Shown here: piece by piece, positions 39,001-45,000 of the stretch
How the letters are laid out: every line of letters begins with the position of its first letter
Position numbering within the stretch: position 1 is the first letter of the stretch
Assembly: GCA_041746575.1 (NCBI GenBank)
Contig: JBGTGT010000080.1
Location: 1-49,907 of the forward strand
From: Microcystaceae cyanobacterium
GTDB lineage: Bacteria > Cyanobacteriota > Cyanobacteriia > Cyanobacteriales > Microcystaceae
Direction: 5' to 3'
DNA length: 49,907 bases
Program-made: the position numbers

Positions 39001-42000
39001 GGGTTTTAATCGCCGCCAAACGATGTTGACCAAACTTTGCTAAATAGACAGTATAATAACGACTGTGGGCAATTTCACGTTCAAGGGTATAATAATATTG
39101 TTGTCCTTTTAAAGCTTGACCGATTAAGGATTTCATCATAGATTTCTCTTTAAACGATTTCTTTCTTTATAAATGAGAGTAGGGGAAGCAAATAGCGATA
39201 TTATTGAGATTAATTATAGATCGGGAGTGATTGCCGACCTCAGACTGGTTAATAAAATAAATCTTAAGAGATTTAAACGTCTTTCGGTTAACGGATTTTG
39301 AAAAACGATCAATGGTTAGATTCTGTCAAAACAAATTGCCACCCGACACGATATTTCAAGACTTTATTAATCAATAGGCTCTTAAAAGTATTTTTAATCT
39401 CAGATTTTTCCTCCTATAAAATCTCTCGTCCTGTTAAAATTCCTCGCACTTCTAACATTGCCGAATAGGTAGGAAGAATGTGTAAAGTTTCATCCTCTGG
39501 GGTGTAATCCAAGGCAGTTTGAATCGCTTCTTTTAAGTCCTCTTTAATCATTAAATTCATCGGCGTATCATTGTCCCCTTGACTATACTTTAATCTTAAA
39601 GCCATATCATAAATGCGATCTCCACTCACCACCAAATTTCCCCCTAGCTTCACTAATTTTTCCGTATCCACATCCCAAATCCAAGAAACATCCGTGCCAT
39701 CAGGAATACGGTCATTTAAAACCAGTAAAGTAGTTGAAGCTTTCCCCTTCATTTTAATATCATTTATAGTGCGAATCGTTTCATTCATACCAACGGGATT
39801 TTTTGATAATAAAATTCTAATGTGTTTGCCTTGAACTGTTAATTCTTCAGCACGGCCAAACGCGGCACGGAAGTTTTTGATAGAGTCAAAAATAATGTCT
39901 TGATTAACTCCTAATTCTTGCGCTACTAAGCCCGCCGCTAAACTATTATATTTATTATAAACGCCAATTAAAATCTGTGGCCAATCTTGAGAATGAAAGG
40001 CCGGTTGACTTTTTTGGAAACCACAACTCTGACATTTAAAATCCCCTAAATGGGATAAATAAACCCCTCGATAATCCAAGAGATAACCACAACTAGGACA
40101 GTAAATAGAGTCAACTGCATGAGGAATTTCCTCTAAATATAAATTCGGTTCACTCAAGCCAAAATAACGCACAGGTTGACTAATATGTTGTCCGAAATGG
40201 GATAAAGTAGGGTCATCTGCATTAACAATGACGACGGTTTGATTGGATAACGGTTTAATCGCTGTTTGCCAACGCTGACAGATAGTATCAACTTCTCCAT
40301 ATCGGTCTAATTGGTCGCGAAATAAATTCAACGCTAAGATAATTTTGGGGTCACATTCCTTGAGTAAAAGGGGTAAAATATTCTCATCAACTTCTAAGAT
40401 AGCGTAATCTGCATTCAGTGTTCCAATTAAATTTGTATGAGCCAACAAAGCTGTGATTAAACCATTAATTAAATTCGCCCCCGTTTCATTGTGGGCAACC
40501 TGCCAACCCTCTTTTTCTAAGATAGAGCGCAATAGTAATGAAGTGGTTGTTTTGCCATTCGTGCCAACAACTAAAATCACTCCTTGCTTGACTTGTTTGC
40601 ATAATAAACGAAGCAAATGAGGATGAAACCGACGAGCAATTTCACCGGGTAAAACACTAGCTGCCCCTAATTTTAATAAACGAACCCCAGACGTTACAAT
40701 TTTAGCTGTGGCAACCGCTAACGCTAACCGAATTCTATCCACTGATTGCATAGATTAATTTTGCTCCCTTCATCCTAAATTTTTCATCAAGGTGATAGAC
40801 GAATCCTAATCATTTTAGTTAGCAACATCCCCTATAATTTACCATTAAATACGGTGTAGGGGTTCGGGGCTTGCGCCCAGAATGAGTAATCCCTTATTGT
40901 TGCTACTTTATATTAAATCTTATGAATAAACAAAGAAAAGTAATATTTTTAATAATATTAAGTGTTTTTTATGTCAGTTGTTCCCAATCTCAACCACAAG
41001 CTACTCCTAATCCGTCCTCTGCTCCTTCCCATTCTGTTGTTGCCAGTGACCCCCAAGCCGCTGCAAATTATCGTCAAAAAGGCTTACAATATCGAGCAGA
41101 AAAGCGATACTCTGAGGCGATTAAAGCTTTAGAACAATCTACTCAATTAAATCCTAATTACACAGCAGGATGGGTAATTTTGGGGTGGACTTACCACTTA
41201 GCAGAGAAGCCCCTAAACGCAATTACAGCACTTCAAACTGCCCTTACTCAAGATTCGCAAAATGTTGAAGCTTTAAATGCTTTGGGTATTGTATATCTGG
41301 TGAAAGGTGATTTAGCTAAAGCGGTAGAAACCCATTCAAACGCTCTGAGCCTAAAAAAAGATAACGAAATTGCTCACTATAATCTAAATTTAGCCTATGA
41401 TCGCCTGAAACAATATGATAAAGCGATCAAACAGGGTCAAAAAGCGATCGCACTCGAACCCCAAAATCCCCATCCTTGGGTCGCCTTAGCTCTTGCCTAT
41501 TGGGATAAAGGAGATAAAACTAAAGCAAAAGAAAACTATCAGAAAGCTATTGCTCTAGATAACCGTTATCGTCAAAAAAATTACTTAAATTATCTTAAAG
41601 AGGCGGGTTTTAGTCCAGACCAAATTGAACGAACGAAACAAATGATATCGCAATTCTAGACTCATGATGTACACCTTAATCATGATGCCCGATGCCCAAA
41701 AACCGAAAACGCCGTATCTCATTTAATAAGAAAACTTGTTCCATTAAATCGCTATATAATCAAGCTAACCATGCAATCTTAAAATAAATGGCCGCATCAG
41801 CATTTGTGCAAGGGGTGATAGGAGCGTCTAGTCTGGCGATAGGAGCTTCTGTAGGGGTATTTTTACGACCACATCGCATTTTTTCGGCAACAGTGATGGC
41901 TTTTGGCAGTGGAACATTAATTGCAGCCTTAGCCTTTGAAATTGCCAGTAAAGTTTTCGCCGAGTCAGGATTTTGGCCGTTGGTCATAGGTTTCACCATC

Positions 42001-45000
42001 GGAGGCGTTTTATTTACATTTTTTACTGAATATATTGATAATCATGGAGGATTTTTACGGAATCCTGCCTCTAGTCGTCGTTATCTCTTAGAACATCGAG
42101 AGAATAGCCCTGAAAGTGTACTAGAACGCATCTCCCACGTAGAAGTTCTTCGTCATCTTCCCGAAGCGGAAAAAAAAGCCCTTGTTGGTGTATTAAGCCC
42201 AATTTACGCTAATTCTGCTGACACTCTCTGTCGAGAGGGAGACGAAGGAGATTGTCTTTATTTTATTATCTCAGGTCAAGCCTATGTGTGGAAAGGGCAG
42301 AGAAAAATTGCCATTTTGAATGAAGGCGATATATTTGGCGAAATGTCTCTTTTGACAGGTGAACCTCGCTCAGCAACCGTGATTGCTCAAACTGACATGG
42401 AATTGTACCAACTCAATCGAGATAATTTTACCCAAGTCTTAAGTCATTCTCCTTATCTTGCTTGGGCGTTAAGTCGAGTCTTGGCGCGTCGTCTACAACG
42501 CTCGGTAGAATCTCAAGTTAAAGAAAGTCCATCCCTACAAGATTGGGAAAATCGCTTAATGGAGACCATCGAAATTGACCGATTAATCTATGAAGATCCC
42601 CAAACATTGGCAAAATTAGTTAGAAGATCTGCTCCTCTGGCGATTATGGTCGGTACACTGATTGATAATATCCCCGAAGCCTTAGTGATTGGTATGAATA
42701 GCGGACTCAATCATATCGGATGGTCATTTTTGGTAGCCGTATTTATTTCCAACTTCCCCGAAGCCTTATCCAGCGCATCCGGCATGAAACAAGCAGGCAC
42801 GCCTAGATATCACATTTTAGCCCTTTGGTACGGAGTTGTCGTTATGAGTGGCGTCATGGCCATGGGCGGCCATTGGTTACAGTATAGTACCTCAACATTA
42901 GTCATCGCGATCGCTCGAGCCACCGCCGGAGGGGCAATTTTAGCGATGTTAGCCAGTACCATGATGCCAGAAGCCTACGAACTAGGAGGCAGTTCCGTAT
43001 CCTATTCGACGATTGCCGGATTTTTAGTCGGTTTTCTCGTTGCGTCTTTAGGTTTTTAGCGATGATTAATACTACCTGCTCAAGGCGTTTTAAAGCGTTA
43101 TTTTATAATACCGTCTTCAGAATATTTCTGGATAGTGTGATTATTTGGCATTTTATCCCGAAAGTTTCTATCTATCCTCGGAAAATGTAGGGAAAGTTTC
43201 TGGATAACATTCCCTACAAGGGGATTATACGGAAACTTTCTGCTTTTTGTCCCATAGGGGTTGACTATCCAGAAAAAGTCGGTACAATAAATAGTTATGC
43301 CGCAAATCAGTATTGCTGTATTTCCTCATCCAAACCTATGACAAAGCTCACGGGGTTACATAGGTTTGGGATGATTTGGTTTTTCCCCTAGTTTTTAGGA
43401 GAGTCAATTAAAGGGTGATCGCCAATAGATAAATTTGTTGATTTTTTTAAAGAATTGCTGAGAGGTCTCGATAATTTAGATAATAAATTAATAATTCAAT
43501 CGCTAAACTTAGCATTTCTTTCGATTTAGAATAACACAAAGTTTTTCGGTGTAATCTAGCTAAATAGTGTCTGAGTCGTCCGTTCTCTCCTTCTACTCTT
43601 GTCCTGTAAGTTTTACTGATGATCTGATCTCCCTTTGGGATAAATTGAGGGTACACTTTATATCCATCCGTGAGCCAAAAATAACACTTCCAACTTTTTA
43701 CTTTTAGCCACAATTTCTCAAATGTTTTGGCACTTCTATCTCCTAGTTCCCATTCTAAAATTGAAGAGTAATTTTTTCCTAAAGCTGTCCACAGACAGAT
43801 TTTATTCGTTTTTTTCTTATATATGTCTGCAATTCATCTAATTGCCCTACTAAGGGAATTTTGTAATTTTTCTTTTTTTTAATGCTTCTTTTCCAGCCTC
43901 TCTTACCCAACGGATCACTGTATTGTGATTGACTGCGGAGTTGCAGTCATCGGTACTCTGCCTTTTTAAGGCAGAGTACCGATGACCTTAGTCACTCTTT
44001 CAATTCCCCTAAATCCCCTACCATTTAAATACATTTCTAGACATTTTGCTTTGACTTCTTGAGAATAGTCTGTAGTTGAATAAGATTCTATAAATTGACG
44101 ACCACACTGTTTACACTGATAGTTTTGTTTTCCTCTACGATGACCATTTTTTCTAATGTCATGATTTCTGCATTTTGGGCAATTAATTTGATTTTCTTTC
44201 ATGGCGATCGCTGTTTAAAAAATTTCCTCTTTATCATATATCATCCCACAGGAATGCAACACCAAGCTCACTATTGGGACTTAAACGATAACAAGAGTAA
44301 AATTAGGGTATAATCGTTATCAGATCATAATTTCACGTCGAGATAACCCATAAGAGAGAGACAACCCCCGCAGCCATGCCACCCTGCTTTGAAAAATGGT
44401 GTCAGCGTTTCGATGATTGCTTCTCAACCAAAGCTCAGAAAACTGGGTTTAGAAATTACCTAGTCGGATTATTAGGAGAAAGTGAGCGGACAAACCTGAC
44501 CCAGATGGCGAATAATGCGGTAAGAGTAGTTTATAACCGATCAGATGGTTTATCGTTTCAACACACAGAATAAAATTGCTAGTGTGCGCGATCGCTTGGG
44601 CAATACGACTCAATATATCTACAATGAGTTGGGAAATCTCCTGAAAATCATCGATCCAGTGGGATTAGAGACGACTTTTACCTATAAGGATGGTAAGGTG
44701 ACTAAAATCACCGATCCAGCTCATCGAGAGACGCTGTTAGGGTATGATTTGGCGGGAAATCTGATTAAAATTACCGATCCCGATGGCACATCTCGCACTT
44801 GGCAATATGATAGTGCGCGCCACATGATCTCGGAAACCGATCAACGAGGCAATTTTGAACAGACTTTCTATGATTTTGCTGGACGAGCCGATAGCGCAAT
44901 TCGTAAGGATGGATCTACCTTAGATTTTAACCCAGTTCAGGTACAGGGGTTATCTCAAAGGAATTTAACAACCAATCCCGTTACTGCGCCTTCTGCCTTT

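What a model noticed while it worked through the whole genome (the two positions that open the first line are those of the whole stretch)
41788..43059. ZIP-fold metal transporter with a cyclic-nucleotide-binding domain inserted in its cytoplasmic loop
g02011, annotated only as a cNMP-binding protein, is an 8-helix ZIP-family metal transporter whose TM3-TM4 cytoplasmic loop is replaced by a complete cyclic-nucleotide-binding domain with an intact phosphate-binding cassette: a candidate cAMP/cGMP-gated ZIP, a family of hundreds of mostly cyanobacterial proteins.
Evidence so far: 309 full-length-range homologs at E<=1e-80, named ones cyanobacterial. AF2 model: 3 TM, CNBD 103-245, then 5 TM (141). 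VIA top hit BbZIP 7z6m Z21.7, rmsd 2.4 over 202 residues; CNBDs (PycTIR, CAP, PKA) Z19-21 (149). Invariant in 40 sequences: F-G-E...R-S-A cassette (183-196) and transport-site motifs D293-x-x-P-E297 and N322-x-P-E325 (134).
(Added by a program. Inside this text positions count along the whole contig: contig position 1 is position 1 of the stretch shown here. "Call 12" and the like, gene names such as g00115 and contig names such as C1 are that model's own, and its searches are not shown. The text may have been shortened before it was handed on; [...] marks where a part breaks off. The agent that wrote the report below was given it as the finding of a first reader that could run no searches.)

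Follow-up and report, generated by a model that had tools for sequence, protein, structure and literature searches.

The report
cAMP sensor inside ZIP-fold metal transporter
This cyanobacterial gene encodes a ZIP-type metal-ion transporter with an intact cyclic-AMP sensor built into its regulatory loop, and its counterpart in the laboratory strain Synechocystis appears to be a long-listed cAMP-binding protein never recognised as a transporter, so whether a second messenger switches metal uptake can be tested directly.

Summary
Confirmed. ORF 41788-43059 (423 aa) has three membrane helices, a complete cyclic-nucleotide-binding domain (CNBD, 108-241), then five helices. The membrane part matches BbZIP by fold (Z 22.0, rmsd 2.3 A, 202 residues) and by profile (E 4e-16). 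The insert replaces the TM3-TM4 loop, BbZIP's autoinhibitory sensor. The phosphate-binding cassette is the best-conserved segment measured; a tandem-CNBD sister form has lost it (1 of 31 intact), a natural control.

The scan reported this family seven times on other genomes. New here: a 56%-identical Synechocystis PCC 6803 protein (BAA18856) is slr0593 by synteny with recA, annotated 'cAMP binding membrane protein'; a 2000 report that it binds cAMP is recalled, not read. A dimer model adds C-helix contacts across the two-fold axis.

Corrections: BbZIP has no TM5 His; site changes go further (H177>D, Q207>S, D208>N, M99>L, E240>G, E276>T); the wider family is not only cyanobacterial. The HNxPEG motif fails, so it is not filed as GufA/ZupT.

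Best reading: cAMP-regulated divalent-metal importer, Mn2+ likeliest (0.55 overall). Transport, substrate and gating are untested.

The parts
41788..43059 (+). Whole gene: ZIP-fold transporter with one inserted cyclic-nucleotide-binding domain, 423 aa (P0001)
41791..42042 (+). TM1-TM3 (residues 2-85); L44 at BbZIP M99, E51 at the entry residue S106, D84 at exit residue D144
   Evidence: helices; mapping read from the profile alignment; conservation
42037..42108 (+). Conserved basic linker from TM3 to the CNBD (residues 84-107; G87, G88, F89, R91, R97, R98 invariant in the close clade), in place of the His-bearing start of BbZIP's loop
   Evidence: mean column identity 0.86 over 84-100; pLDDT under 50 at 87-110
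42109..42510 (+). Cyclic-nucleotide-binding domain, residues 108-241 (N-terminal helices, beta-roll, B and C helices)
42334..42378 (+). Phosphate-binding cassette, residues 183-197 (F-G-E ... R-S-A)
   Evidence: column identity 0.95, highest of 13 segments measured; G184, E185, R194, S195 invariant in 102 of 102
42451..42510 (+). C-helix of the CNBD (222-241); L232, R235, L236 invariant; 232, 235/236, 239, 240 touch the partner subunit in the dimer model
42511..42618 (+). Linker from C-helix to TM4 (242-277), with conserved W253 and D264; low-confidence in the model; candidate coupling element
   Evidence: role inferred
42619..43056 (+). TM4-TM8 (278-423)
42664..42678 (+). TM4 transport-site motif D293-N294-x-P296-E297 (BbZIP H177-N178-x-P180-E181)
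42748..42762 (+). TM5 transport-site motif S321-N322-x-P324-E325 (BbZIP Q207-D208-x-P210-E211)

Best explanation
A homodimeric, ZIP-fold elevator transporter for a divalent metal whose activity is set by cAMP. Shown: the fold, the insertion point, the intact cassette, the residue changes. Inferred: (1) the protein dimerises through the scaffold helices TM2/3/7/8; (2) one metal is held mid-membrane by D293, E297 and E325 with S321/N322 and water, an all-oxygen site that favours Mn2+ (my odds: Mn 0.4, Zn/Co/Cd 0.25, Fe2+ 0.15, Mg/Ca 0.15, other 0.05); (3) the CNBD hangs between TM3 (fixed scaffold) and TM4 (moving domain), exactly where BbZIP has its metal-sensing autoinhibitory loop, whose exit ligands are partly lost here (H149/H151 gone, E276>T); (4) cAMP binding moves the B/C helices, rearranges the C-helix pair across the dimer as in CRP, and tightens or slackens the 242-277 tether to TM4, which changes elevator motion or metal release. 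Direction: activation by relief of an apo-inhibited state is slightly likelier (about 60:40), by analogy with other CNBD proteins (recalled). Feedback by the metal itself has thus been swapped for control by a second messenger that in Synechocystis reports CO2/bicarbonate, light and nutrients.
For: Fold and profile match to BbZIP. D293, P324 and E325 equivalents are near-invariant across all four sequence sets, with or without CNBD (D293: 102/102, 54/54, 31/31, 30/32; E325: 102/102, 53/54, 31/31, 32/32), so a carboxylate site is under selection. TM3-TM4 loop is the autoregulatory element in BbZIP (PMC11549095 passages; PMC10256678 abstract and sections 7-8) and links scaffold to transport domain (PMC9278863 passages). 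Cassette is the best-conserved segment (0.95 against 0.63 for the rest of the barrel region), intact in 39 of 51 distant single-CNBD representatives but 1 of 31 in each domain of the tandem form. PCC 6803 ortholog: BAA18856, 56% identical over 422 residues, same clade at SH-aLRT 99, slr0593 by synteny, annotated 'cAMP binding membrane protein'; reported cAMP binding recalled. Genome has three class III cyclase domains over cut-off. Dimer model: score 0.56, best of 3 controls 0.00 (mark reached by 20 of 30 solved pairs and 1 of 23 single chains; runs agree in at least 74% of contacts, partner pLDDT at least 65), with scaffold contacts and C-helix contacts; the scaffold part may come from likeness to the solved BbZIP dimer. 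The Mn transporter TmpA needs Asn at an M2 position where ZIPB has Asp (PMC8844249 passages), as N322 here (mapping inferred).
Against: No transport or gating data exist in what I could read. The site departs from BbZIP at three of four M1 ligands named (H177, Q207, M99), and at E240, H275, E276 and D305, so transport could be lost or concern another ion. No member of the D-x-x-P-E subgroup with a measured substrate turned up. No metal-regulator box is enriched upstream of 80 loci and no metal or cAMP gene is a recurring neighbour. slr0593 falls 1.3 log2 early in iron deprivation rather than rising, against an iron-scavenging role. Both linkers are low-confidence in the model and pTM is 0.55, so coupling geometry is not shown. 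The gene is patchy (11 of 301 phylum genomes with this query, a lower bound). TmpA and BmtA keep HNxPEG, so they do not explain D293.
Confidence: 0.55

Rival explanations
1. cAMP-regulated carrier or channel for a hard, non-transition cation (Mg2+, Ca2+) or protons: the ZIP scaffold has been retuned by losing its soft ligands.
For: His and Met ligands are replaced by Asp and Leu throughout the subgroup, M2 is eroded (E240>G) and exit ligands are lost. It coexists with a short ZIP above the Pfam cut-off in four genomes (G342, G346, G332, G324), so it need not supply zinc. No Zur/Fur box enrichment.
Against: All characterised ZIPs in the papers read move transition metals. Public pipelines label the CNBD-less relatives ZIP zinc transporters, though that is annotation only.
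Confidence: 0.15
2. Non-transporting sensor (transceptor): the membrane part binds a metal and signals through the CNBD, or cAMP controls binding to a partner or protein turnover.
For: Release ligands H275/E276 are S390/T391 in 102 of 102 close homologs. A conserved basic linker and W253 could form a partner surface.
Against: CNBD-less relatives share T at E276 (30 of 32) and the same core, so the change predates the insert. No recurring partner gene, and no output domain in the protein.
Confidence: 0.12
3. Regulated transporter, but the ligand is cGMP or another nucleotide rather than cAMP.
For: Ser/Thr after the cassette Arg can accept cGMP (recalled); structural neighbours include cGMP- and cUMP-bound domains; Synechocystis makes cGMP (PMC10117731 passage).
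Against: The ortholog is annotated as cAMP-binding and was reported to bind cAMP (recalled).
Confidence: 0.1
4. The CNBD is only structural (dimer clamp, as recalled for the CNBH domain of CNNM magnesium transporters) and transport is constitutive.
For: The tandem form keeps the fold without the cassette; C-helix residues sit at the modelled dimer interface.
Against: In this clade the cassette is the most conserved segment and invariant, unlike the tandem form.
Confidence: 0.06
5. Anti-phage membrane effector of Pycsar/CBASS type, opened by a cyclic nucleotide.
For: CNBD hits PycTIR and TIR-effector models (E 1.9e-17) and the PycTIR structure (Z 19.9).
Against: Hits cover only the CNBD (130-252). 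No cyclase is adjacent in the window (nearest at 25004-26785), none among the 13 recurring neighbour families checked from 81 loci or 65 neighbours from 80 metagenome loci. Neighbours are housekeeping genes.
Confidence: 0.02

Closest known systems
BbZIP (Bordetella bronchiseptica ZIP; PDB 7z6m, 5tsa, 8ght), GufA/ZupT-type
   Same: Eight-helix 3+5 core (Z 22.0, rmsd 2.3, 202 residues), profile E 4.4e-16, x-x-P-E motifs in TM4 and TM5, D144, P279/E280 kept, modelled dimer through scaffold helices.
   Different: 190-residue insert with a CNBD replaces the 18-21-residue His loop; H177>D, Q207>S, D208>N, M99>L, S106>E, E240>G, H275>S, E276>T, D305>small; no extra N-terminal helix; 20% identity.
Slr0593 (SYPK) of Synechocystis sp. 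PCC 6803, BAA18856.1, 434 aa
   Same: Ortholog: 56% identical over 422 residues, same site and cassette residues, same clade. Named 'cAMP protein kinase regulatory chain' and 'cAMP binding membrane protein'. cAMP binding reported by Yoshimura et al. 2000 (PMID 10692419; reference listing seen, content and the name SYPK recalled).
   Different: Not a different protein kind; its ZIP half is not in its annotation and Pfam misses it at E<=1e-3. Shorter C-helix-to-TM4 linker (8 gap positions).
CNBD-less D-x-x-P-E ZIP subgroup (about 225-245 aa, e.g. P0156 Metabacillus lacus, P0184 Nocardioides)
   Same: 31-44% identity, same D/E/N/E core and T at E276.
   Different: No insert; separated from all 93 CNBD-bearing rows by one branch (SH-aLRT 82, quick tree). 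Substrate unmeasured as far as I found.
CNBD-regulated membrane proteins: SthK, MloK1, HCN/CNG channels, SLC9C1 exchanger; MFS-CNBD fusions
   Same: Same sensor fold; CNBD fusions to MFS transporters are noted in PMC10710835 (passage). SLC9C1 is an elevator-type exchanger under cAMP control (recalled).
   Different: There the CNBD is terminal, not inserted inside the transport core, and none carries a transition metal.
Manganese ZIPs TmpA (Streptococcus sanguinis) and BmtA (Borrelia)
   Same: Glu near the outer face and Asn at an M2 position where ZIPB has Asp (PMC8844249 passages), resembling E51 and N322 (mapping inferred, not aligned).
   Different: They keep HNxPEG and loop histidines and have no CNBD.

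Membership tests
ZIP fold / ZIP homology (PF02535) | Eight membrane helices in a 3+5 arrangement superimposing on BbZIP | tested here: met
   (Z 22.0, rmsd 2.3, 202 aligned)
ZIP fold / ZIP homology (PF02535) | Sequence homology to a solved ZIP across TM1-TM8 | tested here: met
   profile A2 vs BbZIP E 4.4e-16, positions 4-238 of 242
ZIP fold / ZIP homology (PF02535) | Pfam gathering score 35.1 | tested here: not met
   25.1 bits for P0001; some CNBD-bearing relatives pass, e.g. P0258 41.8, P0316 50.5
ZIP fold / ZIP homology (PF02535) | Paired x-x-P-E metal motifs in TM4 and TM5 | tested here: met
   P296/E297 and P324/E325 invariant in 102 of 102
ZIP fold / ZIP homology (PF02535) | Homodimer through the scaffold helices | tested here: inconclusive
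   model passes the mark (0.56 vs best control 0.00) but may reflect likeness to the solved BbZIP dimer; binding not measured
ZIP fold / ZIP homology (PF02535) | Transport of a divalent transition metal | not testable with these tools
   no assay
GufA/ZupT subfamily | HNxPEG motif in TM4 | tested here: not met
   D293-N-I-P-E-A; Asp in 102/102, 54/54, 31/31; motif definition PMC8844249
GufA/ZupT subfamily | His-bearing TM3-TM4 loop and M3 exit site (D144, H149, H151, E276) | tested here: not met
   D84 kept; loop replaced by CNBD; E276>T391 in 102/102
GufA/ZupT subfamily | Binuclear centre with M2 ligands N178, D208, E240 | tested here: not met
   N294 kept, N322, G355; M2 is not essential in BbZIP/ZIP4
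cNMP-binding domain (PF00027) | Pfam gathering score 27.5 and complete alpha/beta-roll/B-C helix fold | tested here: met
   80.8 bits; Z 19.9-18.3, rmsd about 2 over 128-142 residues
cNMP-binding domain (PF00027) | Phosphate-binding cassette Gly-Glu ... Arg-Ser/Thr/Ala-Ala | tested here: met
   aligned to PKG cassettes
cNMP-binding domain (PF00027) | Measured cyclic-nucleotide binding | not testable with these tools
   ortholog annotated cAMP-binding; 2000 report recalled, paper not held
Pycsar/CBASS CNBD effector | Cyclase gene adjacent in an operon | tested here: not met
CRP/FNR regulators and PKA regulatory subunits (source annotations) | DNA-binding helix-turn-helix, or kinase/soluble tandem CNBDs | tested here: not met
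   NCBIfam hits far below cut-off and limited to 105-259; rest of protein is membrane helices

The most novel reading that the evidence does not exclude
A cyclic-nucleotide-gated transition-metal transporter: cAMP binds the inserted domain, the two C-helices repack across the dimer as in CRP, and this switches Mn2+ (or another trace-metal) uptake, linking the cyanobacterial CO2/light signal to metal supply; the orphan cAMP receptor Slr0593 is the prototype, and the tandem His-substituted form is the same machine retuned to another ligand.
Probability: 0.35. Interest if true: 0.85.

Novelty: new variant of a known kind. Interest (0 to 1): 0.63.

Why it matters
Known ZIP regulation is feedback by the metal at the TM3-TM4 loop. 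A second-messenger domain placed in that loop would be a different control logic for the family, and a clean system for asking how this loop steers the elevator. In cyanobacteria few cAMP targets are known; giving Slr0593 a transporter identity turns an unexplained cAMP receptor of a genetically tractable strain into a testable link between carbon/light signalling and metal homeostasis. The histidine-free site also defines an uncharacterised ZIP subgroup whose substrate would inform selectivity rules. I found no paper describing the architecture (searches; open-licence library only). The scan itself has noted the family on at least seven other genomes, none naming slr0593.

Tried and rejected
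Artefact or chimeric assembly: rejected; same architecture in 102 aligned close homologs, 58 of 150 listed 50%-representatives (single CNBD) and 12 of 13 fetched long ORFs. Foldseek on the PDB listed only CNBDs among the rows shown; plain phmmer likewise in the best 60. Operon context: the commonest neighbour (45 of 81 loci, divergent membrane protein, no Pfam hit) follows lineage synteny in Nodosilinea/Leptolyngbya-type records; the upstream TPR gene is not in a recurring cluster. Distant members: 65 neighbours scanned, no family recurring in more than a few loci; single cases of Fe/Mn SOD, a cNMP-domain protein, KdpA, APC permease. Upstream CRP, Zur, Fur, NtcA, ManR, LexA consensus boxes (recalled patterns): 2, 1, 0, 1, 0, 0 of 80 regions, not above shuffles. 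Promoter/terminator scan gave nothing usable upstream of the gene. Viral contigs: no relative. No RNA holder listed. Fitness data for slr0593: the Miao 2023 supplement was cut before the fitness tables; the Zur paper supplement was unreadable; Selim 2021 supplement had no hit in the one file held; four supplementary files of PMC3516471 and one of PMC4195498 were not searched; these may bear on function. Yoshimura 2000 not held. Whether Nostoc Zip11/Zip63 belong here could not be settled (search listing only). The careful tree did not finish; the quick tree is used.

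
Full report
Observation. The window holds a 423-codon ORF at 41788-43059 on the + strand. Pfam finds a cNMP-binding domain at 144-220 (E 7.4e-23) and a weak Zip match at 284-420 (E 1.2e-5; 25.1 bits against a cut-off of 35.1). An AlphaFold2 model from 102 close homologs (mean pLDDT 74.1, pTM 0.55) shows three membrane helices, a CNBD at about 108-241, and five more helices; both joining linkers (87-110, 240-280) are below pLDDT 50. Among 48,161 solved chains the best match is BbZIP (Z 22.0, rmsd 2.3 A, 202 residues), followed by CNBDs at Z 19.9 and below. 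Independently of the model, a profile of P0001, its PCC 6803 ortholog and 32 CNBD-less relatives matches BbZIP from end to end at E 4.4e-16.

The family. The search gave 956 proteins at E<=1e-3 among 8000 scored; the 120 listed are full-length at 53-67% identity. Of 80 genome loci, 75 titles name cyanobacteria, four say 'uncultured bacterium' and one names Gracilibacteria. Of the 150 best 50%-identity representatives, 58 have ZIP-N / one CNBD / ZIP-C (including 3 with a split N-terminal hit and 3 with a split CNBD hit), 32 have two CNBDs at the same place (one truncated), 8 are partial or insert-less, and 52 are unrelated multi-CNBD proteins. The wider family includes a Deltaproteobacteria record and a Rubidibacter tandem form and Atlas clusters whose commonest phylum is Pseudomonadota or Bacteroidota. 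A quick tree on TM4-TM8 alone (125 rows, 146 columns; careful search unfinished) separates the 32 insert-less rows from the 93 insert-bearing rows by one branch (SH-aLRT 82), compatible with one insertion, though the sets were gathered by different searches; the 15 sampled close homologs form a clade at 99. The gene is patchy: 11 of 301 phylum genomes with P0001 as query, a lower bound as only five candidates per genome were scored. In the window's own family 23 of 61 genomes have a Zip match at E<=0.01; of 13 long ORFs fetched, 10 were single-CNBD forms (cassette intact in 10 of 10), 2 tandem, 1 unrelated. Four genomes carry both this protein and a 258-282-aa ZIP above the cut-off. In the window's genome (99.78% complete) it is the only Zip match.

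The metal site. Asp at the H177 position is present in 102/102 close homologs, 54/54 distant single forms (four truncated rows dropped), 31/31 tandem forms and 30/32 insert-less relatives (two gaps). The core is therefore a feature of the whole subgroup, older than the insert, and under strong selection, but it has no His or Met, a weakened second site and no E276 relay. BbZIP's M1 ligands and the dispensable M2 site are described in PMC10256678 (abstract, sections 7-8). In ZIP8, adding His ligands shifted preference to Zn and away from Mn, Fe and Cd (PMC10372143 passages). The Mn transporter TmpA needs Asn at an M2 position where ZIPB has Asp (PMC8844249 passages). These make Mn2+ the likeliest substrate; that is inference. 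The HNxPEG test fails, so the protein is filed as a ZIP-homologous transporter of a separate D-x-x-P-E subgroup, not as GufA/ZupT.

The sensor. G184, E185, R194 and S195 are invariant in 102 of 102. Residues 183-197 have mean column identity 0.95, above TM5 (0.91), the TM3 linker (0.86), TM4 (0.84), the C-helix (0.83) and the rest of the barrel region (0.63). Gly+Glu+Arg are intact in 39 of 51 distant single-domain representatives (three split rows dropped) but in 1 of 31 in each domain of the tandem form, where the Arg is His in 15 of 31 first and 25 of 31 second domains. The fold can thus persist without the cassette, which makes its strict retention here informative. The genome has three class III cyclase domains over cut-off and one below, one on this contig at 25004-26785.

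The model-organism link. The Synechocystis salina locus L074 encodes a homolog that ends 12 bases from a convergent recA-like ORF (recA recognised from its sequence, by recall). Its 90% cluster holds BAA18856.1, 'cAMP protein kinase regulatory chain' of PCC 6803, 434 aa, 56% identical to P0001 over 422 residues. In the PCC 6803 transcript map the minus-strand recA (sll0569) unit, with a 564-nt 3' UTR, is antisense to slr0593 (PMC4195498 supplement row). So the ortholog is slr0593; this is inferred from synteny, not read from one record carrying both names. slr0593 is annotated 'cAMP binding membrane protein' and drops 1.3 log2 at 3 and 12 h of iron deprivation, returning to baseline at 48 h (PMC3516471 table and supplements). 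I recall that Yoshimura et al. 2000 named it SYPK and reported cAMP binding by equilibrium dialysis; I saw only the reference listing, as the paper is not held. Pfam misses the ZIP half of this protein at E<=1e-3, which may explain why it stayed unrecognised.

Mechanism. BbZIP is a two-domain elevator: TM1/4/5/6 move, TM2/3/7/8 form a dimerising scaffold (PMC9278863 passages). Its TM3-TM4 loop caps an exit site and inhibits uptake when metal is bound (PMC11549095 and PMC10153219 passages). The CNBD sits in this loop, tied to the scaffold on one side and to the moving domain on the other. A two-copy model with cAMP riding along scored 0.56 against 0.00 for the best of three controls (the mark was reached by 20 of 30 solved pairs and 1 of 23 single chains; runs share at least 74% of contacts; partner pLDDT at least 65). 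Contacts lie in TM2, TM3, TM7 and TM8, and at C-helix residues 232, 235/236, 239 and 240; L232, R235 and L236 are invariant. The scaffold part may be remembered from BbZIP and the ligand was not scored. The simplest reading is that cAMP moves the C-helices, repacks them across the dimer as in CRP, and alters the tether to TM4. In Synechocystis cAMP responds to CO2/bicarbonate, light, pH and nutrients (PMC10117731 passages). Overall confidence in a cAMP-regulated transition-metal importer: 0.55.

Against and unresolved. No transport or gating measurement was found. Context is uninformative: no recurring metal or cAMP neighbour in 81 close loci or 80 metagenome loci, no regulator box enrichment in 80 upstream regions. 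Repression under iron deprivation argues against iron scavenging. The extent of site change leaves open Mg/Ca transport (0.15) or a non-transporting sensor (0.12). A defence effector is unlikely: PADLOC hits cover the CNBD only and no cyclase is adjacent.

Novelty. Both parts are known, and CNBD fusions to other transporters are known (PMC10710835 passage). A CNBD inside the ZIP regulatory loop was not found in print by seven searches of an open-licence library. The scan has reported the family on seven other genomes, four single-domain and three tandem; those notes agree with my results and are not independent support. None names slr0593. Verdict: new variant of a known kind, real and directly testable; interest 0.63.

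Noticed in passing
P0260, P0262-P0334 set; loci L101, L102: Tandem-CNBD ZIP form (about 590-630 aa) in which the cassette Glu is lost and the Arg is mostly His (25 of 31 second domains); P0250 alone keeps both cassettes and falls among single-domain rows in the tree. G082 carries both a single and a long form.
   Followed up: partly
window 44545-48609 and 49525-49794 (+), 48639-49487 (+): Large YD/Rhs-repeat ORF with an Rhs-type core end and a short variable tail (recognised by recall), followed by a pentapeptide-repeat gene (Pfam) and a near-copy of an internal Rhs stretch; looks like a polymorphic bacterial toxin locus with a candidate immunity gene.
   Followed up: no
window 43447-43713 (-): Short ORF resembling an IS1-type transposase fragment (recalled likeness) between the ZIP gene and the Rhs gene; the 1.5-kb gap also holds short repeated AT-rich words near 43130-43260.
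   Followed up: no
window 25004-26785 (-): Class III nucleotide cyclase with GAF-like N-terminal repeats on the same contig, 15 kb from the gene.
   Followed up: partly
P0412 (MBI2540343.1) versus P0256: In one Deltaproteobacteria record the ZIP-CNBD protein runs on in frame into an APC amino-acid permease (862 aa), while a sister record has them as separate neighbouring proteins; read-through or sequencing slip not resolved.
   Followed up: partly
L074 312-2698; PCC 6803 TU3698: recA's long 3' UTR overlaps slr0593 in antisense, and slr0593 has its own antisense RNA that tracks its mRNA under iron deprivation.
   Followed up: partly
L023-L080 (45 loci), e.g. L030 5340-5885 (-): A 180-aa membrane protein without Pfam match lies divergent and close upstream in 45 of 81 loci, all Nodosilinea/Leptolyngbya-type or unnamed; absent from the window.
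   Followed up: partly
L003: Record titled Candidatus Gracilibacteria holds a 66%-identical copy and shares neighbours with Hydrococcus locus L004; probably a mislabelled cyanobacterial bin.
   Followed up: no
window 817-1852 (+): A PAS/GGDEF-like gene appears split over two overlapping frames (817-1587 and 1412-1852), a possible frameshift.
   Followed up: no
P0156, P0161, P0184 and relatives: A large CNBD-less ZIP subgroup with Asp in place of the TM4 His scores below the Pfam Zip cut-off (3 of 3 tested) and seems uncharacterised.
   Followed up: partly
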